Shown: in pieces, positions 7,828-37,092 of the stretch
Layout: the number at the start of each line of letters is the position of its first letter
How positions within the stretch are numbered: the stretch's first letter is position 1
Assembly (NCBI GenBank): GCA_943372645.1
Contig: CALRZN010000007.1
Span: 8,687 to 72,686 of the forward strand
Reading direction: 5' to 3'
From: Chitinophaga pinensis
GTDB taxonomy: Bacteria > Bacteroidota > Bacteroidia > Palsa-965
DNA length: 64,000 bases
The notes under the pieces: model-generated
Told to the model about the DNA's origin: nothing
The model's database searches: none
What the model saw: the letters and a program-made list of their open reading frames with translations, nothing else
Position numbers and translations under genes: made by a program

Positions 7828-8598
7828 CTAAAACTTTATTTTCAGTTTCGCCAGCACTTCGTGTTTTTTCCGCCGCGGAATTTCGAATGCCTGTCCTGAT
7901 TTGAGCGAAACAAAACACGGTTCTCCTTTCGAATATTCTTTTACAAAATTCAGGTTCAGGATTATGGTTTTGCTGATGCGGATAAACGCCTCGTTGTCGG
8001 CCAGGAACTCTTCAAATTCACGCAACGTTTTCGTAAGCAGGTGCTTTTCACCGCTTTCGGTATAGAGGTACGAATAGCGGTCGGCGGCTTCAATGTGTGT
8101 AACCGTTGACATACGTACAAAAACCACCTGCTCGTTTTCGTGTACCGTAATGCTTTTTTCAATGGCGTTTGAATCAAGATTCTGCAGCAGGTTGATGATC
8201 TGTTTTCCCGCGGTGCCGGTAGCTTCCAGGTTTTCCACGGCCCGCTGTACTGCGCGCTGCAGGTCGGCCACTTCTACCGGTTTCAGCAGGTAATCAAGCG
8301 CACTGAATTTGATGGCGGTAAGTGCATAATGGCTGTAACTGGTTACAAAAACAATCTGGAACGGCAGTTTCGTTCCGAAGCGGCGCAACAGGTCAAAGGC
8401 TGTTCCCTCGGGCATCTGGATATCGAGGAACACGAGGTCGGGCTGGTGTTCGCGGATGAGTTTTTCTGCGCTGTCAATGCCGTCACCCATAGCCACTACG
8501 TTTACTTCCGGGCAGAATTTTTCAAGTAACGTACGGAGCAGTTTCAGGCTGCGCTCCTCATCATCTACAAGAATTACATTCAGCTTAGTGTTCGTCAT
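7828..8598 (-). CDS. LytTR-family response regulator (copy 1)
   Basis: Receiver domain DDE / FLDIQMP / VTSY / YLLKP, plus LytTR domain (HIEAADRYS, FIRISKTIILN). Start placed at MTNTKL, overlapping the kinase stop. Confidence 0.93.
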   Translation of the reverse strand: MTNTKLNVILVDDEERSLKLLRTLLEKFCPEVNVVAMGDGIDSAEKLIREHQPDLVFLDIQMPEGTAFDLLRRFGTKLPFQIVFVTSYSHYALTAIKFSALDYLLKPVEVADLQRAVQRAVENLEATGTAGKQIINLLQNLDSNAIEKSITVHENEQVVFVRMSTVTHIEAADRYSYLYTESGEKHLLTKTLREFEEFLADNEAFIRISKTIILNLNFVKEYSKGEPCFVSLKSGQAFEIPRRKKHEVLAKLKIKF

Positions 8599-11581
8599 AA
8601 AACAGCGTATCAAAATTAAATGTTATCTGCACCCGTGTACCGCACACATTACCCGCATCATCGAGCAGATCGGTAATCAGGATTTCCGCATGATCGGCAT
8701 CTGGAATCAGGTTCAGAATCTGCAGGCGTTCTTTATTCAGGCTCATGGCTACAGGCTGGTGGCGTACACCTTCTATACGTATTGCAGCCGAACGGGTTCG
8801 CCCGATACCGTTATCTTCAATTACGGCAATGATGTTATCGGCGGAACGTTTCACCTCAATTTTCAGTTTCCCGCTGCGTTCATTTTTCAGCGGCAGCAGG
8901 CCATGCCATATTGCATTTTCAACATACGGCTGAAACAGCATGGGCAATACACGCACCTCGTTCATTTTCAGACCGGGATCAATATTGATTTCATACGTAA
9001 ACCGTTTGTCAAACCGCAGCTGCTCCAGGTCGAGGTACATGCGCAGCATTTCGAGTTCACTTTCCAGCGTGTGTGTTTTTTCCCGGGCGTGATTGAGTAC
9101 AAGACGCATCAGCTTCGAAAACTTGGCGAGGTAATCATACGCAATCTGCGTTTCCTGTTCGAGAATGTAGGTCTGTATGGAGTTGATCACATTAAAAATA
9201 AAATGCGGGTTCATCTGCGCCTGCAGGGCCGAAAGGCGGTATTCGGCAATCATGGCATTGATGCGGGTCTGTTCTTTTTCTTTCCGCCGCACCCTGCGCA
9301 GTACGATGCGGAAACCGAAGAAAATCAGAAGCGTTACGGCCACAGAAAGCAACACAAGAAACCACTCCCGTTTCCAGAATGGCTTGTGAATGGTAAACGA
9401 AAACACAAGCGGCACACCTTTGCTCATGCGGTCACCGTGCTGCACAGTAACTTCCAGTTCGTAATTACCGGGAGCCAGGTTGTTCAGTTCAATCACATCC
9501 GAAAGCTGCCTGCGCACTAAGCTGTCTTCACCAATCAGTTTGTATTTCAGCCACACATTTTTCCGGTCTTTGAATGTGAGCAGGTCAAACTGCAGGCTGA
9601 GGTGGTTATCGGAATAATCCAGCTCAATCGGGCTTCCGGCACGGAGCGGTAAAATTTTATCACCGCTGTTGGCCTGGCGCAGGTAAAATCGCACCGGTGT
9701 TTCATTGCGCAGTTCATAACCCACCGGGAAACGGAAAAGTCCTTCCGTGGAGTTGCCGTAAATAAACTCCCCGTCGCTTTGCAGTTGAGTTATTTTATTA
9801 GCCGGCAGCCCGTTACTTGTAGTGTAAGTTGCAAACGGTGTACGCCCGTCGGGTTCGGTAATGCGGATCAGCCCGTTTTGTGTGCTGAGCCAGATGTTGT
9901 GCATGTTATCTTCGAGTATATCCAGCACTTCATCGGTACCGAGTGCAGACGGATCGTACAGGTGCTCCACACTGTCGCCTTTCAGTTCGAGCAGGCCTTC
10001 CAGTTTGGATGCGATAAGTATGCGGCCCGAAGATGTACGTACAATTTTACCGGTTCCACTGCGGATTCCGGGCATCCACGACCAGGCCCCGGTACCGGTA
10101 TTAATTTTCAGTAATCCTTTGCGGCCACTATAAAGCAACATATCCGGCGAAAACGGGTAAATAAAACTGCCTGTATTCGGCAGGTTCTCCGCAAAACCGG
10201 AAACCGTGTTGCCGTCAATTTTATTTACCGCTCCAAATTGCGCAGCCCAGGTGGTGCCGTCAGCTGCAGGAGCAAAACATGAAGCGCCGGGCAGATCGCG
10301 CTGCTTGTCGGCATACTCCAGGAAATGTATTTCTGAAAATGTGGAATCGGTACGGAGCACTGCATCGCGGCCGCCGATATACCAGTTACTTCCGCTCACC
10401 AGGAGGTCGCTGAACACATACGGACGTTTCAGTGCAAATGTTTTGCGGGTTATCCCGTTGCGCCCGATGCGGCAGATTTCGTTCGGGTGCGATGAAACAT
10501 ACAGTTTCCCGTTTACCACTTTTACAAGGTCAGCCACTTTGCCAAGCCCGGGCTGGTTTGCATACCCAACAATGTATTTTGACTGGGAATAAAAAACACC
10601 GTTTTCGAGCGTGGTGCACCACAGCCCGCCTTCGTGGTCTTCACAAATGCCGGCAACGGAATATCCGGCAAGAGAATGAATACAATAGGATGTATCTGCC
10701 GGATCGGGATAATAATACAAACCGCTTTTATAACTGCCCACCCACAGGCTGTTTGCAGCATCTACGCGCAGTGCAAGTGTTACCTGCGGCATTTTCATGA
10801 TGGTGTATTGCATATCTGCTTTTAAACAGATGATGTAATTGTGTACACTCAGGTACGTGGTGCCGTTTGCATCGGAAGCCGAAAGCACGCGCCAGTCGGG
10901 TGTTGCATTTTCCATGTACGGCAGGCTGATCTGCAGGTCTTTTTTGCCGTTGCGTATGCGCACACCGATATGGCCGGTGCTTTGGATAAGTGCTTTGCCC
11001 GGAGCCGAATTGTAAAGCACGGTTTTCAGGTGCCGGTATTCACTGCCGGTGCGTTCAAAATAATACATCGTTTGCCCGTCGGAAGGCCCCGTGAGTGTAT
11101 CGCAGGTGCCATTGCTCTGCACACGCGTGATGCGTTTATTGCCGTGCAGCAGCAAGGCGGAATCACCAAGAAATTCAAGTCCGTAAGTCAGGTCAATTTT
11201 TGCACGTTGCATTTCCACAAACGGTTTGCTGAATACCGTTTCAACAAGTGAGTCACCTTTAATGGTCAGGATGCGGTTATCCGTAGTAACAAGCCAGATG
11301 CGGTTTTTATTGTCCCTCGTAATTACATAACATCCTTTTTCCGGAAGTCCGTTCTGCCTGCTGTATACTTTCAGCGAAGCACCGTTGTAGCGGCAGAGTC
11401 CGCTTTCGGTACTGATCCACATGTACCCCTGCTGATCCTGGATAGCGTTATAACACTCCATCGAGGGAAACGGAATACTGTTACCGATATTTTCAAAAAA
11501 GAGTTGCTGCGCTGTTAACCGGTTTACCGTAACCAGTAAAAACAAAAACAGGAAAATCGGGTTACGGTTAATTTTCAGCAT
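8585..11581 (-). CDS. LytS/YehU-type sensor histidine kinase with periplasmic beta-propeller and Y_Y_Y domains (copy 1)
   Basis: Signal peptide, repeated D-x-x-G-x-x-W propeller blades, LNNLAPGNYEL (Y_Y_Y), TM helix, ALQAQMNPHFIFN, LFQPYVENAIWHG and EDNGIG. TATTTTTG box (minus strand) at 11594-11601 supports the ATG at 11581. Confidence 0.93.
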   Translation of the reverse strand: MLKINRNPIFLFLFLLVTVNRLTAQQLFFENIGNSIPFPSMECYNAIQDQQGYMWISTESGLCRYNGASLKVYSRQNGLPEKGCYVITRDNKNRIWLVTTDNRILTIKGDSLVETVFSKPFVEMQRAKIDLTYGLEFLGDSALLLHGNKRITRVQSNGTCDTLTGPSDGQTMYYFERTGSEYRHLKTVLYNSAPGKALIQSTGHIGVRIRNGKKDLQISLPYMENATPDWRVLSASDANGTTYLSVHNYIICLKADMQYTIMKMPQVTLALRVDAANSLWVGSYKSGLYYYPDPADTSYCIHSLAGYSVAGICEDHEGGLWCTTLENGVFYSQSKYIVGYANQPGLGKVADLVKVVNGKLYVSSHPNEICRIGRNGITRKTFALKRPYVFSDLLVSGSNWYIGGRDAVLRTDSTFSEIHFLEYADKQRDLPGASCFAPAADGTTWAAQFGAVNKIDGNTVSGFAENLPNTGSFIYPFSPDMLLYSGRKGLLKINTGTGAWSWMPGIRSGTGKIVRTSSGRILIASKLEGLLELKGDSVEHLYDPSALGTDEVLDILEDNMHNIWLSTQNGLIRITEPDGRTPFATYTTSNGLPANKITQLQSDGEFIYGNSTEGLFRFPVGYELRNETPVRFYLRQANSGDKILPLRAGSPIELDYSDNHLSLQFDLLTFKDRKNVWLKYKLIGEDSLVRRQLSDVIELNNLAPGNYELEVTVQHGDRMSKGVPLVFSFTIHKPFWKREWFLVLLSVAVTLLIFFGFRIVLRRVRRKEKEQTRINAMIAEYRLSALQAQMNPHFIFNVINSIQTYILEQETQIAYDYLAKFSKLMRLVLNHAREKTHTLESELEMLRMYLDLEQLRFDKRFTYEINIDPGLKMNEVRVLPMLFQPYVENAIWHGLLPLKNERSGKLKIEVKRSADNIIAVIEDNGIGRTRSAAIRIEGVRHQPVAMSLNKERLQILNLIPDADHAEILITDLLDDAGNVCGTRVQITFNFDTLFYDEH

Positions 11582-11831
11582 AAGCAGATGAAACAAAAAT
11601 AAGGGGATTTTTCAATTCGCACCGGAAACATTTTATTTTAAGTATTTCATCCGTTACACGATTATCAAAAATAAAATCGAAGCAATAAACGAAGCAAAAT
11701 GAATACAGCACCGGGCATGTTGATTAAAAATGATACTGTGCGAACGGTTTAACGTTACACACCTTATAAATAGTTACGTGAACGGCCTGCATTTCCATTT
11801 ACCCCGAAAATATGCAGCACTATAAACGCAA

Positions 11832-11887
11832 TGTGCAAAAAATGTAACCAGTGGTAATAATGAATCCTGCAATTCAAAATAGCTTTG
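11832..11887 (+). promoter_or_regulatory. 26-bp conserved operator plus -7 promoter box (copy A)
   Basis: TGTGCAAAAAATGTAACCAGTGGTAA at 11832-11857, 22-nt gap, TAGCTTTG at 11880-11887. Confidence 0.7.
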
Positions 11888-11947
11888 TTAAAGCGATTAT
11901 ACCTTTATCGCAAACCGAACTGGAACATTTAAATACTGCCTGGAACT

Positions 11948-12082
11948 ATGAACTGTGCTACACCGGTTTTCATAGCATCGCCGAATAATCTTCTCCCCGG
12001 ATTTATTTCGTGTTGCAGCAAATGTACATGCAAAATGCGTGTAGCAGGCATTCCCGGACCCGTTAAAAACATTACCCCATGA
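11948..12082 (+). CDS. Possible 44-aa Cys-rich small ORF
   Basis: MNCATPVFIASPNNLLPGFISCCSKCTCKMRVAGIPGPVKNITP. First ATG after promoter A; its stop overlaps the next ATG (ATGA). No homology evidence. Confidence 0.25.
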   Translation: MNCATPVFIASPNNLLPGFISCCSKCTCKMRVAGIPGPVKNITP

Positions 12083-13032
12083 ATATTCATCTGAAGGTTA
12101 AACAAATGTACCTGGACTGGAACTATACCAGTACAGTTACGCATCCGCCGGGAGATGCGATGACCTGGCACGGCAACTGGAAAAGCCCGGCCGGCAAAGC
12201 GGAAACAACAACTGTACGCGCAAAAAACAAAACATCGCGTGCTGCCCGCAAAGCGCGCTACAAAAACTGGATCAATACCATTTTCTTTCTCACACCGGAA
12301 CAAACAGACCATACGATTACTTTGTTCAGCGATGCGGACAACGCAACAACAACTGTTTATCCGCCGGCTTCAGCAAAACAATCCAAAACGATACGTTCTT
12401 TTTTCAAAGGGCTTCTCCTCAACCGGATGTTTATTTACTGTGTGGCAGCAGGCCTGCTTGGTATGGTGATCAGTTCATTCGGCTGTAACCCGCAGCAGCT
12501 CGCCCCGGATGCTTACACCCGCTGGGTTGAATCGGAAAGTAACGGGCTGCACCTGAAGCATACGGTTAACGGCATCACGTTCCGGCTGCAGTATAAACCG
12601 CACTTGTATATTTTGCTGAAACAACACCAGGGCCACATTCCCGATGTGCAGAACGAACTTCAGCAACTTGCGGGTCTGCAGTATTATGATTTTTCGGTGA
12701 GCAGTACCACCGGTGAAACGTTGCTTGAAGGTGGTGATCCCGATGATCAGAAATCGAATTCACAGGTAGAATATTTCACATCAAATATCAAAAAGAATAT
12801 CTGCCTGGTAGAAAACGGCGACACACTGCCCTGCGAACTCAGTTATTTCGAACGCAATTACGGTGCCTCCGAAGGCAACCTGCTGGTGCTCGGTTTCCGC
12901 GAAAATTCACCGGCATCTGAACCAGCCGACCGCACATTTATTTACCAGGACGATGTTTTTAATTCGGGACAGATTAAACTCATGATAAAAGGCAATTCCA
13001 TCGCTTCCGTTCCACAGCCCCGCCTGAATTAA
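12079..13032 (+). CDS. Hypothetical lipoprotein-like protein; true start may be 12427
   Basis: Hydrophobic stretch and lipobox-like SFGC follow Met117. The C-terminal region (LQYKP, GDTLPCELSYFERNYG) resembles conserved Bacteroidota hypothetical lipoproteins. Confidence 0.7.
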   Translation: MNIHLKVKQMYLDWNYTSTVTHPPGDAMTWHGNWKSPAGKAETTTVRAKNKTSRAARKARYKNWINTIFFLTPEQTDHTITLFSDADNATTTVYPPASAKQSKTIRSFFKGLLLNRMFIYCVAAGLLGMVISSFGCNPQQLAPDAYTRWVESESNGLHLKHTVNGITFRLQYKPHLYILLKQHQGHIPDVQNELQQLAGLQYYDFSVSSTTGETLLEGGDPDDQKSNSQVEYFTSNIKKNICLVENGDTLPCELSYFERNYGASEGNLLVLGFRENSPASEPADRTFIYQDDVFNSGQIKLMIKGNSIASVPQPRLN

Positions 13033-13109
13033 GCTGCGGAACTGCCTCTGAAAACAAAAAAAGCCCATTTAACACAATTAAAATATTGAATATCAATAAA
13101 TTACAATAA

Positions 13110-13165
13110 TGTGCTTTTTTTGTAGCCTGTGGTAAGCCGGGATATTCCAAAAGCATCTAATTTTA
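13110..13165 (+). promoter_or_regulatory. 26-bp conserved operator plus -7 promoter box (copy B)
   Basis: TGTGCTTTTTTTGTAGCCTGTGGTAA at 13110-13135, 22-nt gap, TAATTTTA (one mismatch to TAnnTTTG) at 13158-13165. Confidence 0.7.
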
Positions 13166-13233
13166 GGTAATCGGAAAAAAGTACAATTCCGATTCAACAA
13201 TCGAAGAAGCTGAAACGTGAAAAACGAAATACA

Positions 13234-13521
13234 ATGAAAACGAAACTCCTTAGTACCCTCTTGTTACTTGTTTTCGGAGCGGTGCTTATGACAAGCAGTT
13301 GCCGTAAGTTCGAAACAGACGATATTATTGATCCGATAGTTGCCGACACACCAACTGACGGCGGTAACCGCAGCGCTGTTCCGATGACTGATCAGATTGA
13401 ACAGCCGGTACTGCGTGGTTCCGAAAATGGTGCAGAAGAAAAACCGATTATTGCCGATACGCCTGCAGAAGGTAATCGCACCGTAGTTATTCCGGAAGTA
13501 ATACGGAATAACCAGAAATAA
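13234..13521 (+). CDS. Small lipoprotein (95 aa) with a duplicated ADTP-x-x-G-NR motif
   Basis: MKTK, hydrophobic core, TSSC lipobox; PIVADTPTDGGNR and PIIADTPAEGNR; A-rich leader with its own promoter and a downstream terminator. Confidence 0.8.
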   Translation: MKTKLLSTLLLLVFGAVLMTSSCRKFETDDIIDPIVADTPTDGGNRSAVPMTDQIEQPVLRGSENGAEEKPIIADTPAEGNRTVVIPEVIRNNQK

Positions 13522-13656
13522 AATTATCAGCCGGCTAAAGGCAGCCCCGTAAGCTGCCCGGTTTCTTACCTGCCCCCAAAACTGCAGGTAAAAACACCAC
13601 CGGTTTTACTTTACAGTGCCGCACGAACACTGCTGCTGTAAATTTTTAACCACCGA

Positions 13657-13687
13657 TAAAAAAGGCAGCCCATGGCTGCTTTTTTTA
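13657..13687. terminator. Bidirectional intrinsic terminator
   Basis: A-run, GGCAGCC-cat-GGCTGCT hairpin, T-run, between convergent genes. Confidence 0.8.
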
Positions 13688-13691
13688 TGTT

Positions 13692-14456
13692 TCAGAATTT
13701 CATTTTCAGGCGGTTCAGTATTTCCTGCTTTTTGCGGCGGGCTATTTCGTAAGATTGCCCTGTTTTGAGTGTTACAATGGACGGATCGCCTTTGGAATAT
13801 TCTTTAATGTGATTGATGTTGAGTATGGTGTTTTTGCTGATCCGCATAAACAGTTCAATATCCTGCAGGAACAGTTCAAACTCTTTCAGCGTGCGCGATA
13901 CCATGTATTTTGCATTGTCAACTGTATGCACATACGAATACCGGTCGAACGCTTCAATGCAGGTAATCTGCGCCAGGCTGATGAACACCACGGTTTCGTT
14001 ATGGTGTACTGAAATTTTCTGTTCCACGGCATCTGAATCCAGGTTATGCAGCAGGTTTACGATATGTTTATCGTTGCTTACCCGGTCGCGCGCTTTCTGC
14101 AGTGCGCGGCTGACGGCGTTCCGCAGTTCATTCAGATCAACCGGTTTCAGCAGGTAATCAACTGCACTGAAACGGATGGCATTAATGGCATAATGATCGT
14201 AGCTGGTAACAAAAATAATATCAAACGGAATGTTTTCAAACCGCCGCAGCAGGTCAAACGCATTGCCGTCGGGCATCTGGATATCCAGGAATACGAGATC
14301 CGGATGATGGGTATTAATCAGTGTAAATGCATTGTTAATATCTTCCGCTGTAGCAACAATTTTCAGCTGCGGGCAGATTTTTTCAACCAGGTTCTGCAAC
14401 ACCCGGATACTTTTTTCTTCATCATCAACAATAATGGCGTTCAATGTTTCAATCAT
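13692..14456 (-). CDS. LytTR-family response regulator (copy 2)
   Basis: DDEE, FLDIQMP, VTSY, YLLKP and FMRISKNTILN; clear paralog of 7828-8598. Confidence 0.93.
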   Translation of the reverse strand: MIETLNAIIVDDEEKSIRVLQNLVEKICPQLKIVATAEDINNAFTLINTHHPDLVFLDIQMPDGNAFDLLRRFENIPFDIIFVTSYDHYAINAIRFSAVDYLLKPVDLNELRNAVSRALQKARDRVSNDKHIVNLLHNLDSDAVEQKISVHHNETVVFISLAQITCIEAFDRYSYVHTVDNAKYMVSRTLKEFELFLQDIELFMRISKNTILNINHIKEYSKGDPSIVTLKTGQSYEIARRKKQEILNRLKMKF

Positions 14457-17439
14457 ACGAATCGGTTAAAGCAGTTAATGTAATTTCAACACGAGTGCCG
14501 CAGGCGTTTCCTGCAGCATCTTTTAGGTCAATAATATGGATGCCGGATGAATCGAAACCGGGAACCTGCGAAAGAATCTGCAGGCGTTCCTGGTTGAGGC
14601 TTACGGCAACGGAGTGGTGTGACTTGTGACGTGAAATCCGTCCTGCCGCTTCGCGCCCGATGCCGTTATCTTCAATGATTACGAAAACCGAATCAGTACC
14701 GTTTTTCCGGAACGCGATTTTCAGTTTACCCGGACGGATGTTTTTGAGCGGCAACAGTCCATGCCAGATGGCATTTTCCACGAACGGCTGAAACAGCATG
14801 GGCAGCACGCGGAAATCATGCGTATTCAATTCGGGATCAACATCTATTTCACATATAAACCGTTTTTCAAAACGAAGTTGTTCCAGGTCAATGTACATGG
14901 TAAGCAGTTCCAGTTCGCTTTCGAGTGTATGTGTTTTCTGCCGCGCCATGTTCAGCACAATGCGCATCAGTTTGGAAAAACGGGCCAGGTAATCATACGC
15001 CACCAGGGTATCGTTTTCAAGAATATACACCTGTATGGAGTTGATGACATTAAAAATAAAATGCGGGTTGATCTGCGTTTGCAGAGCCGAAAGCCGGTAT
15101 TCTGCAATCATGGTATTGATGCGTGCTTTTTCTGTTTCTTTCCGGCGGATGCGAATTAAAAAATAACGAAACAGCAGGTAGATAATGCAGGCAAGTAAAA
15201 ACCCGGAAAGAAAATAGAACCACGATGACTGCCAGAAAGCCGGCCTGATTTCAAAAACAAACCGTATGGAACGCTCCCTGAATGAACGGCCACCTGCCTG
15301 GGGCCATACAAGCAGTTCGTAACTCCCCGGGGGCAAATTGTAAAACATTAATTTTCCATCCGGGCTTTTGCCGGAAAGCTGGTCTTCACCCATAAGCTGG
15401 TATTCCAGCTGCGCCGGATTTTTTCCCCGGTAACTCAGGACATCGCAATCGAAACTGATCGTTCGCGTACCTGATTCAAAAACATAGGATGATTTCGTTT
15501 GCGAAACGCTCAGGCCATTTCCTGAAACCTGAACAACTTTCAGCAGCGGGTTGGTGTTTGATGTAAAATCAATATTCCGGTTGAACCGGTAAAGTCCACC
15601 TGATGAATTACAATACAGGTAATTTTCATCACAAACGAGATCGGTCATATCTCCGCGCGGAAAACCATCTTCGATATGAAATACTTTATACGAGTAGCCT
15701 TTTGCAGACCGGGTTATTTTAAAGATCGTATTATAATTGCATACCCAGATATTGGAATTTTTATCTTCAGTAATATCTACGGCCGATCCGCCAAAATCAA
15801 AATCGGAAAAAGGTTCGAGGTGCATTCCATCGGCTGCAATCCGGTACAATCCCAGTTCAGAACACGCAATAAGTACCTGCCCGTTTTTTAATCTGCAGAT
15901 ATCTGAAATAGCAGGATTTTCAGGACAGGTAATGGCCCGATGCACTCCAGTCAAAACGTTGTACCGGGCAAGTCCTTTTCTGCCCCCGTAAATCAGCCAG
16001 TTCCCGGTATCTGCAATAATTGCCAAAGCGCGGTTTGATTTAGGTTCCAGTTTTTCTTCGACATTGTTCGTATTGAAACGCATGAGTAGGTCATACTGTA
16101 TTGCCCATAACGAACCGTTACCTGCAGTTGCAGTTGCAATTAGTGTTGCAGGGATATTACTGTTTTTCTCATCGTAAATGGTATTCTGAAGTTTAAACGC
16201 CGAATCAGTAAATACACTGCCTCCCACACCACCCAGTATCCATCCATTATCATATTTCATGATAGTTTTAAAATCAAATACGGGCGGTGCCGCTATTGTG
16301 ACCTCACGAGGTTTCCCGTTTTTTATTACAAACAATTGATTTTTTTGATTTCCAGCAAAAACAGTACTCCCTTCATTGGTAAGCATAGCTGCGCCCTTTT
16401 CCAGGTCGTGAATATCTGCATACGATACGATGTATTTGCTTTTCGAATAAGCCACCGAATTATTAAGTGTAAAACACCATATCCCGTTTTCATGATCCTC
16501 CAGTACACCTCCGACAGCCTGGTCGCGTAACGACCAGACGACTTCATCCGGTTTATCCGGGCTGGGATAGTAATAAAGTCCGCTCTTGTATGTGCTTACC
16601 CATAAGCCATTGTCTTTATCGCAAAACAGCGACAACACCCTGTTCCCGATCGGGTATAAACGATAGGAAAGATCAGATGCTACCTGGACAACATAATTAT
16701 TGGCGGCAAAATAGGTGTTTCCGATATTATCGTTTGCAGTAACAAAACGCCAGTCGGCTGCAAACTTATCTGTAAAAGGAATGCGTATGGTTATCTTCCT
16801 GTTTCCTTTCATGACATTTACCAGAAAATAACCCTTCTGAGAAGGGAACTTTCGGGAAACCGAAGCCCTGTTTTCTGACGACTTATAATGAATAAACCGG
16901 TCGTTTTCCCATTGCAGGTAGTAATATACCGAATCCGACTCGGCAGCGCCATAACGTTTATGTGAACCGGTTTTTAAGTTAATCACCTTTGTATTGATAT
17001 TACCGGTAAGTAACAGCGCTGTGTCACCTAAAAAATCAAGTGCATAGTAAATTTCATAGACATTTTTTTTCGCATCAGTAAATGCTTTGCTGCAGGGTAA
17101 CTGAATAAAACTGTCATTCTGAAGCTGCATAATACGGGAAGCCGATGTGAGTGCCAGTAATTTCCCGTCACGGGTTTCTGCCAGGTCATAAACTGAAATA
17201 TCATTAAGCCCGTTATGCTTACCGTAGGAAACGGTCTCCCTGCCATTGTAACGGCTGATTCCACGTTCTGTCGCGATCCAGATATATCCGTTTTTGTCCT
17301 GAAGCATGTGATAACATTCGTCTGTAGGCAACTCCAGGCGCGATTCCATACTTTCAAAAAGGAGATGCTGTCCGGTGAGTTTTACCGGTAACAAAATCAG
17401 TAAACAAATAATTGCCTGGAGGCTGGAAAAAAGTCGCAT
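14449..17439 (-). CDS. LytS/YehU-type sensor histidine kinase with beta-propeller and Y_Y_Y domains (copy 2)
   Basis: ALQTQINPHFIFN, LFQPFVENAIWHG, EDNGIG and FYNLPPGSYEL. Start placed at MRLFSS (17439), with a minus-strand TATATTTG box at 17453-17460. Confidence 0.93.
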   Translation of the reverse strand: MRLFSSLQAIICLLILLPVKLTGQHLLFESMESRLELPTDECYHMLQDKNGYIWIATERGISRYNGRETVSYGKHNGLNDISVYDLAETRDGKLLALTSASRIMQLQNDSFIQLPCSKAFTDAKKNVYEIYYALDFLGDTALLLTGNINTKVINLKTGSHKRYGAAESDSVYYYLQWENDRFIHYKSSENRASVSRKFPSQKGYFLVNVMKGNRKITIRIPFTDKFAADWRFVTANDNIGNTYFAANNYVVQVASDLSYRLYPIGNRVLSLFCDKDNGLWVSTYKSGLYYYPSPDKPDEVVWSLRDQAVGGVLEDHENGIWCFTLNNSVAYSKSKYIVSYADIHDLEKGAAMLTNEGSTVFAGNQKNQLFVIKNGKPREVTIAAPPVFDFKTIMKYDNGWILGGVGGSVFTDSAFKLQNTIYDEKNSNIPATLIATATAGNGSLWAIQYDLLMRFNTNNVEEKLEPKSNRALAIIADTGNWLIYGGRKGLARYNVLTGVHRAITCPENPAISDICRLKNGQVLIACSELGLYRIAADGMHLEPFSDFDFGGSAVDITEDKNSNIWVCNYNTIFKITRSAKGYSYKVFHIEDGFPRGDMTDLVCDENYLYCNSSGGLYRFNRNIDFTSNTNPLLKVVQVSGNGLSVSQTKSSYVFESGTRTISFDCDVLSYRGKNPAQLEYQLMGEDQLSGKSPDGKLMFYNLPPGSYELLVWPQAGGRSFRERSIRFVFEIRPAFWQSSWFYFLSGFLLACIIYLLFRYFLIRIRRKETEKARINTMIAEYRLSALQTQINPHFIFNVINSIQVYILENDTLVAYDYLARFSKLMRIVLNMARQKTHTLESELELLTMYIDLEQLRFEKRFICEIDVDPELNTHDFRVLPMLFQPFVENAIWHGLLPLKNIRPGKLKIAFRKNGTDSVFVIIEDNGIGREAAGRISRHKSHHSVAVSLNQERLQILSQVPGFDSSGIHIIDLKDAAGNACGTRVEITLTALTDSYD

Positions 17440-17488
17440 AGGATCACCAAACCAAATATAAGGACATTTTCGGGCGGCAAAAGCAGCA

Positions 17489-17544
17489 TGTACATTTTTC
17501 GTAGTGAACGGTAAGTATATCCGGTTAATGTGCACGTAGATTTG
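17489..17544 (+). promoter_or_regulatory. 26-bp conserved operator plus -7 promoter box (copy C)
   Basis: TGTACATTTTTCGTAGTGAACGGTAA at 17489-17514, 22-nt gap, TAGATTTG at 17537-17544. Confidence 0.72.
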
Positions 17545-17550
17545 CTGTAC

Positions 17551-17625
17551 AGATTGCAACAACTATCAAGCAGGTATGAATCCCGTCATGCTGCTCTCCT
17601 AGATACTGATTAATGTCAGTTTTTT
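17551..17625 (+). ncRNA. Candidate small RNA or mini-ORF transcript
   Basis: Lies downstream of promoter C; hairpin at 17569-17595; weak terminator ACTGA-ttaatg-TCAGT-TTTTT at 17605-17625. Confidence 0.3.
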
Positions 17626-17715
17626 ATTATTAACCTGGCCGTTAATGAACACATCGTTGTCTGTGTGGTCAATAACAGAAGGTGAAATGAATTTGAAAAA
17701 TGGATCCAATGAGTG

Positions 17716-17771
17716 TGTACATTTTTCGTAGTAAACGGTAATAAGAATACATATAAGCAAATCTAATTTTG
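17716..17771 (+). promoter_or_regulatory. 26-bp conserved operator plus -7 promoter box (copy D)
   Basis: TGTACATTTTTCGTAGTAAACGGTAA at 17716-17741 (25/26 identical to copy C), 22-nt gap, TAATTTTG at 17764-17771. Confidence 0.75.
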
Positions 17772-17797: not shown

Positions 17798-18946
17798 ATG
17801 AAAACGTACAAAAAAAAGGCATTGACAATTACGCTAGGTCTATTTGGTATAACAAGCCTGAGCGCACAGCAGTGGGTGGATATTCCATCTACCACACATA
17901 TCCGAAATAATAATGCCGGAAGCACTGTTATCGGAGCAACTACATTGCCTGCGGGATTATCATACACTCCCAAACTTTATGTATATAGCGGCAACACAAC
18001 CGGATATGGTGGTGTATTGTTTGATGTTCCTACTGCCCCGTTTTACCAGGGAGATGGAAAGGCCCGGTTTCATTTTAATCGGGCAAATACAAATTTTGAA
18101 AACTTTATTTCATTTGAAAGCGGCAACACATACAAATGGCTAATGGGTATGGACAATGAAGTTGGTGACAACTTTTACATATTCAGAAACAGCAATAAGA
18201 TACTCACGATGAAACAGGATGGAACTACTATTTTTTCGTCAAACAATACAACAGATAGGCTTACAATTAAAAATGATGGTGTAATTCATTTCAATGGCGC
18301 TGGTGGATCTACCAGTACGAGTACAGGCCCGGCTAACGGATTACCGTATGGCACTTCGTATCTTGGTTTTAACACAACAAGGGATCCCGCCAATGGAAAC
18401 TGGACAAAATATACGGATGGGGCAAATAATGGCAGTAGCGTAATCTGGGGAACGATTGGCGGATGGCTTTGTTTTTCTCCAATGTCTTCAGTTAATGGTT
18501 CATCTAACGGAACAACTACTGACGCAGCAGTAAGTGCGAATACAACAATGAAGATGCGCTGGAACGACAATCTTACCGGTACCCATAAAGGCCAGGTAAT
18601 GATCGGAGAAAAGAGCATTACAAGTGGTGCCCATACTGATTTCAAATTAAGTGTTGATGGAAAAATTCTTGCAACTGAAATTTATGTTACTCAACAGAAT
18701 TGGGCGGATTATGTTTTCGAAAAAGATTATAAAATGCTGAGTCTCCCTGAACTGGAAAAATACATCAGTATCAATAAACATCTGCCTAATGTTCCTTCTA
18801 CTGCTGAAATGAAGTCTGACGGAAATAATGTTGCTAATACCGATCAGATTCTGCTCGAAAAAATTGAAGAGCTGACCCTTTATTTGATTGAGCAGCAGAA
18901 AAAAATTGATGCTCTTGAGAAAAACTTAAAAACCAACCAGCAATGA
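17798..18946 (+). CDS. Secreted tail-fibre-like protein with a C-terminal chaperone-like/coiled-coil domain
   Basis: Signal peptide; G/T/N-rich beta repeats; C-terminus KLSVDGKILATEI..WADYVF..HLPNVPS..LLEKIEELTLYLIEQQKKI, typical of this widespread Bacteroidota family. Confidence 0.75.
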   Translation: MKTYKKKALTITLGLFGITSLSAQQWVDIPSTTHIRNNNAGSTVIGATTLPAGLSYTPKLYVYSGNTTGYGGVLFDVPTAPFYQGDGKARFHFNRANTNFENFISFESGNTYKWLMGMDNEVGDNFYIFRNSNKILTMKQDGTTIFSSNNTTDRLTIKNDGVIHFNGAGGSTSTSTGPANGLPYGTSYLGFNTTRDPANGNWTKYTDGANNGSSVIWGTIGGWLCFSPMSSVNGSSNGTTTDAAVSANTTMKMRWNDNLTGTHKGQVMIGEKSITSGAHTDFKLSVDGKILATEIYVTQQNWADYVFEKDYKMLSLPELEKYISINKHLPNVPSTAEMKSDGNNVANTDQILLEKIEELTLYLIEQQKKIDALEKNLKTNQQ

Positions 18947-20586
18947 GGACCGTTTCATTTATTTTCCGATCATCACTTACTATCTGTTTGTTGATGATTC
19001 TATTTTCAACGACCTATGCACAGGTAACAGTACAATGCAATAGCTGCGCCGGAACCGGAACTTATGCAGGTTCAACCGCATACTGTAATACGATTCAAAT
19101 ACCTGGTCAGTTTATACCGGTTAACTCCAATGCACCCTGGGAACTAATATATGAAGAGGAGTTTGACGATCCTGACCTTCATTTCGATGTTGAATGGGAT
19201 TCTCCATATAATATGACTCAAGAGCCAACAGCATACAATAATTATGATGATGCTTATTTATACAGTTGCATCAGACGGAATAATCTAGAATTTGGCAGCT
19301 CTGTTATTGGGACAAATACTGAAACCTGGGTTAATCTAAAAACAAAATATGAGCCCGGTTCTGTTTGTGATTGGGTCGAATTTGATGCGAATTTACAACC
19401 AATCGTTCATCAAACCACAAGAGATTACACATTGCCTCAACTTAACACCAAAGCAATATATGGTCCGGGGAAATTTGAAATTCATTGCAAAGTACCACAG
19501 ATATCTGGTCAATGGCCCGCATTTTGGTTATATGAAAATGACGGGGGAGTGCATACTGGACAAGAAATTGATGTGTTCGAAATCAAACAGGATGCAATGC
19601 ATGCAAATTGCTCAATTGATCCAAATTGTACTAACCCAGAATACACAACTGTAAGTCAAGCAGGCAAACGCATGATGATGACTACTCATTCAAATCCGCT
19701 TCTTCTCGCTGAACCCTGTACTCCTCAAATGTGTTATATCAATAGCGAGCCTTTCAGTAATGGATGGCATACATTCACATTAGTTTGGGATGAAAACTAC
19801 ATGCAATGGTTTATGGATGGGAATTTAGTTTTCGAAAGGACTAGGATGTCTTATTATTCTCCAGGTAATTATACTTACAAAGAGTTAACCTTTCCTTCAC
19901 CCAAAATAGGAATGGAAATTAAAATTGGAAGTATTGTTTGGACTGATGAGAATATGTTATACATCAATGGTTCAGGGCAAAATATTTGTGGTTCCCCTAT
20001 CGCACCAAATGATTTTCTTGTTGACTATGTAAGGGTGTGGAAAAGAGGCTGCAACAATCAGCCCCGAACCTTAAAATATGATTATGACCCAATTACATTT
20101 TATGATGCAAATGATGCTATTGTGCAGGCAGGAACTATTGATTTTTCCGCAACAAGTCCCGCCTGGGAAGTCAATTCAAACCAGGTATTGAAAGTCGGCG
20201 CAATAAACGAAATCAAGATTGTAAATTTTGAAGCAAAACTGGGTTGTGACTTTACAGCAACGATAAACAATTGTGATGAATTGGTTTACGGCAGAAAGGC
20301 TGAAGCGGGTGATGAATCAAGTGAAATTAAGCAAGAAAAAACAACCCCGCTATTCAGTATCAGCCCAAATCCGAGTAGCACAACTATCAAGTTAAAATCT
20401 CAAAGTATTGTCCGGAAAGCAAATATTGAGATATTTGATATGCTTGGGAAACGAGTTTTTTTTGTCAATCAGGAAATATTAAAAGATACAGAATTAAATA
20501 TTACGTCATTAAATCAGGGAGTTTATCTTTTGCGAATTTCAAACGATGCAGGCTTCCTGGAAACACATCAAATCGTAAAAAACTAG
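18943..20586 (+). CDS. GH16 glycoside hydrolase with a T9SS type A sorting domain
   Basis: WPAFWL, catalytic EIDVFE (ExDxxE), WHTFTLVW and VDYVRVW; C-terminal ISPNPS...IFDMLGK...GVYLLRI. Confidence 0.88.
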   Translation: MRTVSFIFRSSLTICLLMILFSTTYAQVTVQCNSCAGTGTYAGSTAYCNTIQIPGQFIPVNSNAPWELIYEEEFDDPDLHFDVEWDSPYNMTQEPTAYNNYDDAYLYSCIRRNNLEFGSSVIGTNTETWVNLKTKYEPGSVCDWVEFDANLQPIVHQTTRDYTLPQLNTKAIYGPGKFEIHCKVPQISGQWPAFWLYENDGGVHTGQEIDVFEIKQDAMHANCSIDPNCTNPEYTTVSQAGKRMMMTTHSNPLLLAEPCTPQMCYINSEPFSNGWHTFTLVWDENYMQWFMDGNLVFERTRMSYYSPGNYTYKELTFPSPKIGMEIKIGSIVWTDENMLYINGSGQNICGSPIAPNDFLVDYVRVWKRGCNNQPRTLKYDYDPITFYDANDAIVQAGTIDFSATSPAWEVNSNQVLKVGAINEIKIVNFEAKLGCDFTATINNCDELVYGRKAEAGDESSEIKQEKTTPLFSISPNPSSTTIKLKSQSIVRKANIEIFDMLGKRVFFVNQEILKDTELNITSLNQGVYLLRISNDAGFLETHQIVKN

Positions 20587-20605: not shown

Positions 20606-20640
20606 AGCGGTTGCCCCAAAAAGGCAGCCGCTATTTTTTT
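20606..20640 (+). terminator. Intrinsic terminator overlapping the convergent stop codon
   Basis: AGCGGTTGCC-loop-GGCAGCCGCT followed by a T-run. Confidence 0.7.
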
Positions 20641-36791: not shown

Positions 36792-37092
36792 CAGGGCAAT
36801 CGCGTCTGAAAAATGCCATCTGCTATATCCCCATAATCAGGACTTTCGGGCAGACCTCTTACTTTTGATAGTGTTAGCGGGCAGTCAGTTCGAGTGTTTC
36901 TTGCTGATTTTTCATCAGCAAGAAATGTATCGGGAACGTGGGTCGGGATCCCCTCGCACGTTCTCGATACACCTTCCATTTCGCCGCCCTGCGCGCCCGG
37001 CACTCGAACTGACTGCCCGCTTTTGTTTTGATTCAATACTATTTTGGAAAACCGCTAAATCAGTATAAAAATTTTCAGACGCGATTGCCCTG
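36792..37092. repeat. Nested palindromic element (two 21-bp perfect inverted repeat pairs and two internal hairpins)
   Basis: Pairs 36792-36812/37072-37092 and 36876-36896/37001-37021; hairpins 36897-36925 and 36926-36971. Confidence 0.88.

What the first reader, a model, noticed from the sequence alone, without database searches (positions are those of the whole stretch)
11832..17771. One 26-bp operator, four copies, always 22 nt upstream of a promoter: a candidate self-contained LytTR regulon
Seen: TGTGCAAAAAATGTAACCAGTGGTAA (11832), TGTGCTTTTTTTGTAGCCTGTGGTAA (13110), TGTACATTTTTCGTAGTGAACGGTAA (17489) and TGTACATTTTTCGTAGTAAACGGTAA (17716), consensus TGTRCWWWWWWYGTARYNWRYGGTAA. Each is followed after exactly 22 nt by a TAnnTTTG-type box (11880, 13158, 17537, 17764). 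Sub-sites TGTR, YGTA and GGTA recur at 11 and 10 bp, about one helical turn. Copies A/B and C/D form two sub-types. Established: TAnnTTTG is the Bacteroidota -7 element, and LytTR domains bind phased direct repeats near the -35-equivalent region. Inference: the two neighbouring LytTR regulators activate all oppositely oriented secreted genes in this block, possibly one sub-type per regulator.
Basis: partly seen in the sequence, partly recalled or inferred. Interest (0 to 1): 0.85.

Follow-up and report, generated by a model that had tools for sequence, protein, structure and literature searches.

The report
Conserved operator of Bacteroidota LytTR regulators
A 26-base DNA motif that sits a fixed 21-22 bases in front of several promoters is very probably the docking site of two neighbouring LytTR response regulators, and the same regulator-and-site pair recurs in many related bacteria, often in front of genes for secreted proteins.

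Summary
The 26-bp motif occurs at 11832, 13110, 17489 and 17716 (+); 0.05 copies are expected by chance. Each copy lies 22 nt before a TAnnTTTG-type -7 box; the second box ends in A. A fifth copy with the same spacing lies on another contig, so the regulon is not self-contained.

The LytTR reading now has comparative support. A motif-plus-box scan of about 185,000 species genomes gave 3 hits, and 2 of them lie beside or on the same contig as a homologous kinase/LytTR pair. In an RR tree, 19 of the 28 loci of one well-supported clade carry the motif. No locus of the 40 RRs outside that clade was counted as carrying it; one hit there I judged chance. A matrix built only from 20 foreign sites ranks window sites A, C and D and the off-window site E as 1-4 of the whole genome.

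In related genomes the operator stays the same while the spacer diverges.

Binding, activation and transcription starts are inferred, not shown. "One sub-type per regulator" is not supported. This is a new variant of a known kind. I found no paper on it.

The parts
11832..11857 (+). Operator copy A
   Evidence: Exact match to the consensus. Rank 1 of the whole genome with a matrix built from 20 foreign sites.
11880..11887 (+). -7 box of promoter A (TAnnTTTG), 22 nt after operator A; predicted start near 11892
   Evidence: The box spans -12 to -5 in a mapped flavobacterium (PMC9723704, passages). The start itself is inferred.
11948..12082 (+). 44-aa Cys-rich small ORF in the leader of promoter A; its stop overlaps the ATG at 12079
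   Evidence: Not known to be expressed.
12079..13032 (+). Target gene T_A (317-aa ORF, no Pfam or NCBIfam family). Only residues from about 111 to 317 are conserved, and relatives are lipoprotein-like ORFs of about 200-258 aa.
13110..13135 (+). Operator copy B (T-tract version)
   Evidence: Rank 15 with the foreign matrix.
13158..13165 (+). -7 box of promoter B (last base A), 22 nt after operator B
13234..13521 (+). Target gene T_B, 95-aa lipoprotein-like protein. A terminator-like hairpin follows at 13540-13558.
17489..17514 (+). Operator copy C. It begins 29 nt from the HK2 -7 box, which lies on the other strand.
   Evidence: Rank 2.
17537..17544 (+). -7 box of promoter C. No ORF of 30 aa or more before site D, so this is probably an upstream tandem promoter of D1-D2.
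17716..17741 (+). Operator copy D
   Evidence: Rank 3.
17764..17771 (+). -7 box of promoter D, 26 nt before the ATG of D1
17798..18946 (+). Target D1, a secreted protein with no Pfam family. A homologue is the operator-driven gene in genome G368.
18943..20586 (+). Target D2: GH16 glycoside hydrolase with a type IX secretion sorting domain. A terminator follows at 20606-20632.
13692..14456 (-). RR2, response regulator with receiver and LytTR domains
14449..17439 (-). HK2, Reg_prop propeller sensor plus LytS-type His_kinase. Its own -7 box lies at 17453-17460 on the minus strand.
7828..8598 (-). RR1, receiver plus LytTR, 57% identical to RR2
8585..11581 (-). HK1, Reg_prop plus His_kinase, 39% identical to HK2. 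Its -7 box lies at 11594-11601 on the minus strand.

Best explanation
The 26-bp motif (consensus YGTGC, an A/T tract, a weaker GTAG-like centre, then YGGTAA) is the operator of one clade of LytTR-type response regulators. In this genome that clade is RR1 and RR2. Each operator ends 21-22 bp before the sigma-A -7 box, which puts it at about -60 to -35 and next to or over the -33/-35-equivalent region. On a signal sensed by the propeller kinases HK1 and HK2, the phosphorylated regulator would bind there and help RNA polymerase start at five promoters. Four are in the window: A before T_A, B before a small lipoprotein, and C and D in tandem before D1 and the GH16/T9SS protein D2. One is on contig C12. 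SHOWN: the motif, its spacing, its rarity, and its co-occurrence with the regulator clade across genomes. INFERRED: binding by RR1 and/or RR2, activation rather than repression, the transcription starts, and the signal.
For: (1) Rarity and geometry. There are 4 window copies against 0.05 expected. There are 5 genome copies at 2 mismatches or fewer, all 22 nt before a -7 box. The next best matrix hits have no box at that place.

(2) A motif-only scan of GTDB species genomes gave 3 hits. L048 lies 64 nt from, and divergent to, a Reg_prop kinase plus a LytTR RR that is 45% identical to RR2. L049/L169 lies on the same contig and strand as such a pair, and two more sites are in that genome. The third hit, L050, is in a MAG labelled Clostridium; no kinase or RR match was found on it, and I read it as chance.

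(3) RR tree. A 10-row clade has support 100/98. With more genomes it becomes a 28-row clade with SH-aLRT 98, and 19 of its loci carry the motif. I counted 0 of the 40 RRs outside it; one hit there was left uncounted (see the Against line). The label needs 8 changes against a shuffled mean of 16.7, and 0 of 500 shuffles were as low.

(4) Out-of-sample test. The relaxed box-anchored definition was fixed. It was then applied to 20 new loci chosen by RR similarity alone and gave 13 hits in 12 loci over 361 kb. Backgrounds were 1 hit in 949 kb of other RR loci and 1 extra hit in the 5.5-Mb genome.

(5) A matrix from the 20 foreign sites ranks G000 sites A, C, D and E 1-4 and site B 15th of 127 hits at 12 bits or more over both strands.

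(6) Footprints. In pairs of related genomes the operator is kept while the 21-22-nt spacer differs. In G327/G188 the operator is 26 of 26 identical. G022/G023, G420/G446 and G276/G164 show the same pattern.

(7) The operator occurs with either of two sensor types, propeller or TPR kinases, so it tracks the regulator.

(8) In G183, G276, G164 and G015 it precedes the kinase or regulator gene itself. Self-activation is usual for LytTR systems (recalled).

(9) The -7 box is enriched just before ORF starts in this genome: 304 of the 536 boxes found within 150 nt lie within 30 nt.
Against: No binding, expression or start-site data exist; no RNA run could be listed. The motif shows no clear pair of 9-11-nt repeats, which is the usual LytTR site form (PMC4847170). 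9 of 28 clade loci had no hit in the 10-20 kb fetched. The relaxed definition was shaped after seeing three hits, although the second batch was tested with it unchanged. L048 and L169 were found through the motif, so they cannot be counted as independent in the tree tally. One hit in a non-clade locus (L212) was left unlabelled on my judgement that it was chance. Sites A, C and E have long leaders and no clear first gene. I did not screen the fetched loci for other DNA-binding proteins that might co-occur.
Confidence: 0.75

Rival explanations
1. The regulators bind the motif but repress, or act differently at different promoters, rather than activate.
For: Nothing here shows the direction of control. 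Site C also lies just upstream of the divergent HK2 promoter, where binding could interfere.
Against: The operator ends upstream of the -7 box at a constant 21-22 nt in 25 of 25 sites and does not cover the box or the start. That position is typical of activators (established knowledge). Characterised LytTR regulators mostly activate from upstream sites (PMC4227749, passages).
Confidence: 0.1
2. The motif is bound by another transcription factor that merely co-occurs with these two-component systems.
For: I did not screen the fetched loci for other DNA-binding genes.
Against: The motif tracks the RR clade in a tree. It stays with the RR when the kinase type changes. Its neighbours differ from genome to genome apart from the kinase and RR. 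In L048 the 8-kb contig holds only the target, the kinase and the RR.
Confidence: 0.08
3. The 26-mer is part of an extended promoter read by an alternative (for example ECF) sigma factor.
For: The distance to the downstream element is fixed. The proximal GGTAA lies where a -35-like element would sit.
Against: The downstream element is the sigma-A type TAnnTTTG box (PMC9723704). 26 bp with three phased sub-sites is far longer than a -35 element. No sigma gene was seen among the ORFs of the window block that I ran through Pfam. I did not search the other loci for one.
Confidence: 0.04
4. Chance similarity, or remnants of a repeated or mobile element.
For: None found.
Against: 0.05 copies are expected. 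Flanks and spacers are unrelated. The motif recurs in 16 other genomes next to homologous regulators.
Confidence: 0.01

Closest known systems
LytS/LytTR two-component systems with mapped operators (E. coli YpdA/YpdB and BtsS/BtsR; S. aureus AgrC/AgrA)
   Same: The RR has receiver and LytTR domains, and the kinase has the LytS-type His_kinase domain. The best NCBIfam models are BtsR and LytR, both below their cut-offs. The operator lies just upstream of the target promoter, next to the system's own genes. In several genomes it precedes the system's own genes.
   Different: Known sites are two 9-11-nt repeats separated by 11-13 nt (PMC4847170, passages). Here a compact 26-bp unit has three short sub-sites 11 and 10 bp apart and an A/T tract, with no evident long repeat. 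The sensor is a large propeller or TPR domain instead of a membrane-embedded LytS or peptide sensor. The promoter is of the Bacteroidota -7 type.
Bacteroidota hybrid two-component systems (HTCS) of polysaccharide utilisation loci
   Same: There is a Reg_prop / Y_Y_Y sensor domain. The system sits next to genes for secreted proteins, including a GH16 glycanase.
   Different: An HTCS fuses kinase, receiver and an AraC-type DNA-binding domain in one protein (recalled). Here the kinase has none of these, and a separate LytTR regulator is used. I did not look for SusC/SusD genes.
PorX/PorY-SigP control of type IX secretion genes
   Same: A two-component system linked to type IX secretion in the same phylum. 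I saw this paper only as a reference-list entry in PMC9723704.
   Different: That system acts on secretion-machinery genes through an ECF sigma factor (title of the cited paper; the rest is recalled). Here a LytTR regulator would act directly on sigma-A promoters of cargo genes.

Membership tests
LytTR-type response regulator two-component system | Regulator with an N-terminal receiver and a C-terminal LytTR DNA-binding domain | tested here: met
   RR1: Response_reg 5.1e-18, LytTR 5.8e-12. RR2: 6.4e-21 and 4.4e-13. All are above Pfam cut-offs.
LytTR-type response regulator two-component system | Adjacent kinase with the LytS-type His_kinase domain (PF06580), co-oriented with the regulator | tested here: met
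   HK1 2.1e-22, HK2 2.7e-21. The kinase and RR genes overlap by 8 and 14 nt.
LytTR-type response regulator two-component system | The regulator binds the proposed operator | not testable with these tools
   Only co-occurrence is shown.
Classical LytTR operator architecture | Two direct or inverted repeats of 9-11 nt separated by 11-13 nt (PMC4847170) | tested here: inconclusive
   No shift from 6 to 25 nt gives enriched self-identity. The two best conserved sub-sites (positions 1-5 and 21-26) are 21 bp apart, the usual repeat period, but share only a GT core.
Classical LytTR operator architecture | Site lies just upstream of, or abuts, the -35-equivalent region of the regulated promoter | tested here: met
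   The operator ends 21-22 nt before the -7 box in 25 of 25 sites. With the box at -12 to -5 (PMC9723704) this is about -60 to -35. Starts were not mapped here.
Bacteroidota sigma-A promoter | TAnnTTTG -7 box | tested here: met
   3 of 4 window sites and site E are exact; B ends in A. The box is enriched 0-30 nt before long ORFs: 304 of the 536 boxes found.
Bacteroidota sigma-A promoter | Transcription starts a few nt after the box | not testable with these tools
   No RNA holder was listed.
Hybrid two-component system (HTCS) | Kinase, receiver and AraC DNA-binding domains fused in one polypeptide (recalled definition) | tested here: not met
   HK1 and HK2 match only Reg_prop and His_kinase.

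The most novel reading that the evidence does not exclude
One clade of LytTR regulators and its 26-bp operator, locked 21-22 bp from the -7 box, form a portable activator cassette across the class. It has been wired again and again to different type IX secretion cargo genes and to two unrelated sensor types. The regulator would read three successive major grooves plus an A/T-tract minor groove. That would be a LytTR-DNA recognition mode different from the two-repeat mode of AgrA, YpdB or ComE.
Probability: 0.35. Interest if true: 0.7.

Novelty: new variant of a known kind. Interest (0 to 1): 0.58.

Why it matters
Bacteroidota genomes carry dozens of LytTR regulators; about 25 tblastn matches turned up in this genome alone. 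In the searched literature I found no operator or regulon described for any of them (listings and abstracts only). This work gives a concrete regulator-operator pair that is conserved across genomes, with exact promoter geometry. Position 1 of the motif is T in 19 of 25 sites. Positions 2, 22 and 23 are G in all 25, which gives three bases to mutate. There is also a list of targets. Five of the six target proteins I tested in other genomes carry a type IX secretion sorting domain, and so does D2 in the window. This makes the regulation of secreted cargo proteins in environmental Bacteroidota directly testable. It also offers a compact inducible promoter part for a phylum with few genetic tools.

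Tried and rejected
Close orthologues for classical footprinting of the window itself. None were found: the best RR was 48% identical in 40 relatives and 42% in metagenome contigs. The strict motif was not found above control level in 40 relatives of G000 or in 80 relatives of G061 (3 genomes with hits against 6 control hits).

RNA evidence. No RNA holder was listed.

Other LytTR systems of this genome. I looked for analogous repeated, box-anchored operators beside six paralogous propeller-kinase systems and genome-wide among local box pairs. Nothing comparable turned up. The C/D pair (25 of 26) was the top non-duplicate local pair.

A -33 TTTG element. It is only weakly positioned in this genome. 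I therefore dropped the argument that its absence marks activator dependence.

Structured RNA or a riboswitch in the leaders. Rfam gave one sub-threshold hit inside RR2. The folds of the C and A leaders had z-scores of -0.83 and -0.79.

Small peptides after sites A, E and L033. A loose Cys-rich likeness was seen, but it is not convincing.

PDB sequence search with RR2. It matched receiver domains only. No structure was predicted, because a fold would not test the operator.

Supplementary files were not consulted, so TSS tables of PMC9723704 were not seen.

The claim about the length of T_A relatives rests on 34 hits. Two of them are from the unpublished genome G046.
Full report
OBSERVATION. 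The expectation is 0.05, and none of 100 shuffles reached four. Each is followed after exactly 22 nt by a box at 11880, 13158, 17537 and 17764. Three boxes are TAnnTTTG; the one at 13158 ends in A. Outside the 26-mer and the box the sequences are unrelated, so this is not duplicated DNA. Pairwise identities are A/B 18, C/D 25 and A/C 14 of 26.

GENES. The block holds two paralogous two-component pairs on the minus strand.
- HK1 (8585-11581) and RR1 (7828-8598).
- HK2 (14449-17439) and RR2 (13692-14456).

Both kinases match Reg_prop and the LytS-type His_kinase domain. Both regulators match Response_reg and LytTR (starts). RR1 and RR2 are 57% identical. HK1 and HK2 are 39% identical.

The operators all point the other way.
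- A precedes a 44-aa small ORF and the 317-aa ORF T_A.
- B precedes a 95-aa lipoprotein-like ORF.
- D precedes D1 and D2. D1 has no family. D2 is a GH16 hydrolase with a type IX secretion sorting domain.
- C has no ORF of 30 aa or more before D, so it looks like an upstream tandem promoter for D1-D2.

Relatives of T_A are ORFs of 199-258 aa that match only from residue 98-198 onward (34 hits, two from the unpublished genome G046). The true start of T_A is therefore uncertain. Terminator-like hairpins follow T_B, RR2 and D2.

WHOLE GENOME. The window is G000:C7:8687-72686. At 2 mismatches or fewer the 5.5-Mb genome holds five copies. The fifth (site E) is on C12 at 132863, minus strand, again 22 nt before a TAnnTTTG box. 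It lies just after the stop of a 583-aa secreted-protein gene and about 2 kb from another, distantly related, kinase/LytTR pair. A matrix from the five sites separates them cleanly from everything else, 30.7-35.3 bits against 22.9 for the next hit, but that test is circular. The TAnnTTTG box behaves as a promoter element in this genome. Of 2327 ORFs of 300 aa or more, 536 have one within 150 nt upstream, and 304 of those boxes lie within 30 nt. A -33 TTTG is only weakly positioned there, so I make no argument from its absence.

COMPARATIVE TEST. No close orthologue of the regulators exists in what I could search: best 48% in 40 relatives and 42% in metagenome contigs. The strict motif is not above control level in those relatives. 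The turning point was a scan of the species-representative genome collection for the motif plus spacer plus box. It gave three hits.

- L048 is an 8-kb contig. The site lies 28 nt before the ATG of a 973-aa fibronectin-repeat protein with a type IX sorting domain. It is 64 nt from, and divergent to, a propeller kinase followed by a LytTR regulator 45% identical to RR2.
- The second hit is in a Flavobacteriales MAG (G061). It heads a 16-kb same-strand gene array that ends in such a kinase and regulator. Two more sites with a box or near-box at 21-22 nt lie on another contig of that genome.
- The third hit (L050) is in a MAG labelled Clostridium. No kinase or RR match was found on it, and I read it as chance.

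I then asked the reverse question: do loci chosen only by regulator similarity carry the motif? A tree of 57 regulators puts RR1, RR2, the two motif-found regulators and six others in one clade with support 100/98. I defined a relaxed, box-anchored form of the motif: first sub-site with 1 mismatch or fewer, at least 5 of 6 A/T, last sub-site with 2 mismatches or fewer, spacer 21-22. It hits as follows:
- 4 of the 6 clade loci that had been found by homology;
- 0 of 14 non-clade loci from the same relatives;
- 1 of 80 metagenome regulator loci (949 kb);
- one place in G000 besides the five known sites.

Because that definition was shaped after seeing three of the hits, I tested it unchanged on a new sample. 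A search of 400 genomes of the class gave 20 further loci at E of 1e-62 or better. Those loci hold 13 hits in 12 loci over 361 kb. In a 68-regulator tree, a 28-row clade (SH-aLRT 98) holds all 19 motif-bearing loci. I labelled none of the 40 rows outside it. The label needs 8 changes against 16.7 for shuffles, and 0 of 500 shuffles were as low. I left one hit (L212) unlabelled because it looked like chance. Its regulator indeed falls outside the clade, but this was my judgement. Two of the 19 labelled loci (L048, L169) were found through the motif and are not independent.

The 25 sites come from 17 genomes. They share G at positions 2, 22 and 23 in all 25. T is at positions 3 and 24 in 24 of 25, and at position 14 in 23 of 25. 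An A/T tract fills positions 7-11, mostly A but T-rich in some, and the centre is weaker. A matrix built from the 20 sites outside G000 and run over both strands of the whole G000 genome ranks sites A, C, D and E first to fourth. Site B, whose tract is T-rich, ranks 15th of 127 hits at 12 bits or more.

FOOTPRINTS AND CONTEXT. Where two related genomes can be compared, the operator is kept while the spacer between operator and box differs. G327 and G188 have 26 of 26 identical operator bases and unlike spacers. G022/G023, G420/G446, G276/G164 and the two G384 sites show the same.

The operator is found in several positions:
- divergent from the kinase start (G000 C and D, L048, G368, G446, G327, G188, G022, G023);
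- directly before the kinase or regulator gene (G183, G276, G164, G015);
- just after the regulator gene (G458, G384).

The partner kinase is either a propeller type of about 980 aa or a TPR type of about 645 aa. The operator therefore follows the regulator, not the sensor. In G368, whose regulator is the closest to RR2 (54%), the operator-driven gene is a D1 homologue, 41% identical over 213 residues. Five of six target proteins tested in other genomes carry the type IX sorting domain.

MECHANISM. In a flavobacterium with mapped starts the TAnnTTTG box spans -12 to -5 (PMC9723704, passages). With a 21-22-nt spacer the operator then spans about -60 to -35, and its best conserved YGGTAA end abuts the -33/-35-equivalent region. 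That is an activator position. LytTR regulators with known sites also bind just upstream of their promoters (PMC4227749 and PMC4847170, passages). I therefore propose that phosphorylated RR1 and/or RR2 bind the 26-mer and recruit sigma-A RNA polymerase.

The tract between sub-sites 1 and 2 can be A-rich or T-rich. To me this suggests shape rather than base readout there. That is inference, as is a recalled likeness to the AgrA complex, which contacts successive major grooves.

The site form differs from the usual LytTR description of two 9-11-nt repeats separated by 11-13 nt (PMC4847170). I found no enriched internal repeat. The two strongest sub-sites are, however, 21 bp apart.

WHAT DOES NOT HOLD. 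The regulon is not self-contained, because of site E. 'One sub-type per regulator' is not supported. The three positions that distinguish A/B/E from C/D are degenerate across the family. G061, with one clear clade regulator, has both bases at position 21. I cannot exclude a preference. Neither HK1 nor HK2 has a same-orientation operator, so self-activation is not indicated in this genome. Site C does sit 29 nt from the HK2 box on the other strand.

NOVELTY. My searches were LytTR with Bacteroidetes, Flavobacterium, type IX secretion and the propeller domain name (I read listings and abstracts only). They returned no paper that describes an operator or regulon of a Bacteroidota LytTR regulator. 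The system is an ordinary kind of thing, a response regulator and its operator. The conserved site, its fixed promoter geometry, its non-classical form and its link to type IX cargo genes appear to be new. I rate it a new variant of a known kind, with interest 0.58. It is a well-supported and directly testable prediction, not a surprise in principle.

LIMITS. There are no binding, expression or start-site data. Supplementary files were not seen. Nine clade loci showed no hit in the stretch fetched. I did not screen the loci for other DNA-binding genes.

Noticed in passing
window about 36800-36870 (G000:C7:45546): An 11-copy, near-identical repeat is spread over 9 contigs, and one copy lies in the window. 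It was seen as identical 60-nt stretches before a TAnnTTTG box. It is probably an insertion sequence or other mobile element.
   Followed up: no
L048 (contig of a MAG labelled Pseudanabaena): This 8-kb contig carries a type IX secretion sorting-domain protein, a Bacteroidota-type -7 box and a propeller kinase/LytTR pair. It is probably a Bacteroidota contig binned into a cyanobacterial MAG.
   Followed up: partly
window 11948-12082: A 44-aa Cys-rich small ORF starts 60 nt after the -7 box of promoter A. Its stop codon overlaps the ATG of the 317-aa ORF. Loosely similar Cys-rich small ORFs follow site E and the L033 site. The likeness is weak.
   Followed up: partly
G000:C21:94437 (minus strand): This is the only other relaxed box-anchored hit in the genome. 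It lies 4.3 kb from a further, distant LytTR regulator gene (C21:98766-99458). It could be chance or a diverged operator.
   Followed up: no
G000:C1:397560-397610 and C5:78170-78225: D1-like genes sit beside two paralogous propeller-kinase/LytTR systems. Upstream of the C1 copy a short direct repeat ends 22 nt before a -7-like box. It is a candidate operator of a different regulator.
   Followed up: no
L002 (G022:C61:27008): A 2-mismatch copy of the motif lies 22 nt before a near-box with one base off. It is in a genome that has two regulators of the clade, so it may be a further regulon member there.
   Followed up: no
window 17798-18946 (D1), residues about 175-380: The C-terminal region has no Pfam or NCBIfam model. 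It recurs in many secreted proteins of 36 of 61 related genomes, often 590-630 aa long. It is an undescribed domain.
   Followed up: partly
L029 13600-13720 (G022:C73): The operator-driven Spo0M-like gene is cut short after 40 codons here but is intact (156 aa) in the orthologous G023 locus. It is a probable pseudogene behind a still conserved operator.
   Followed up: no
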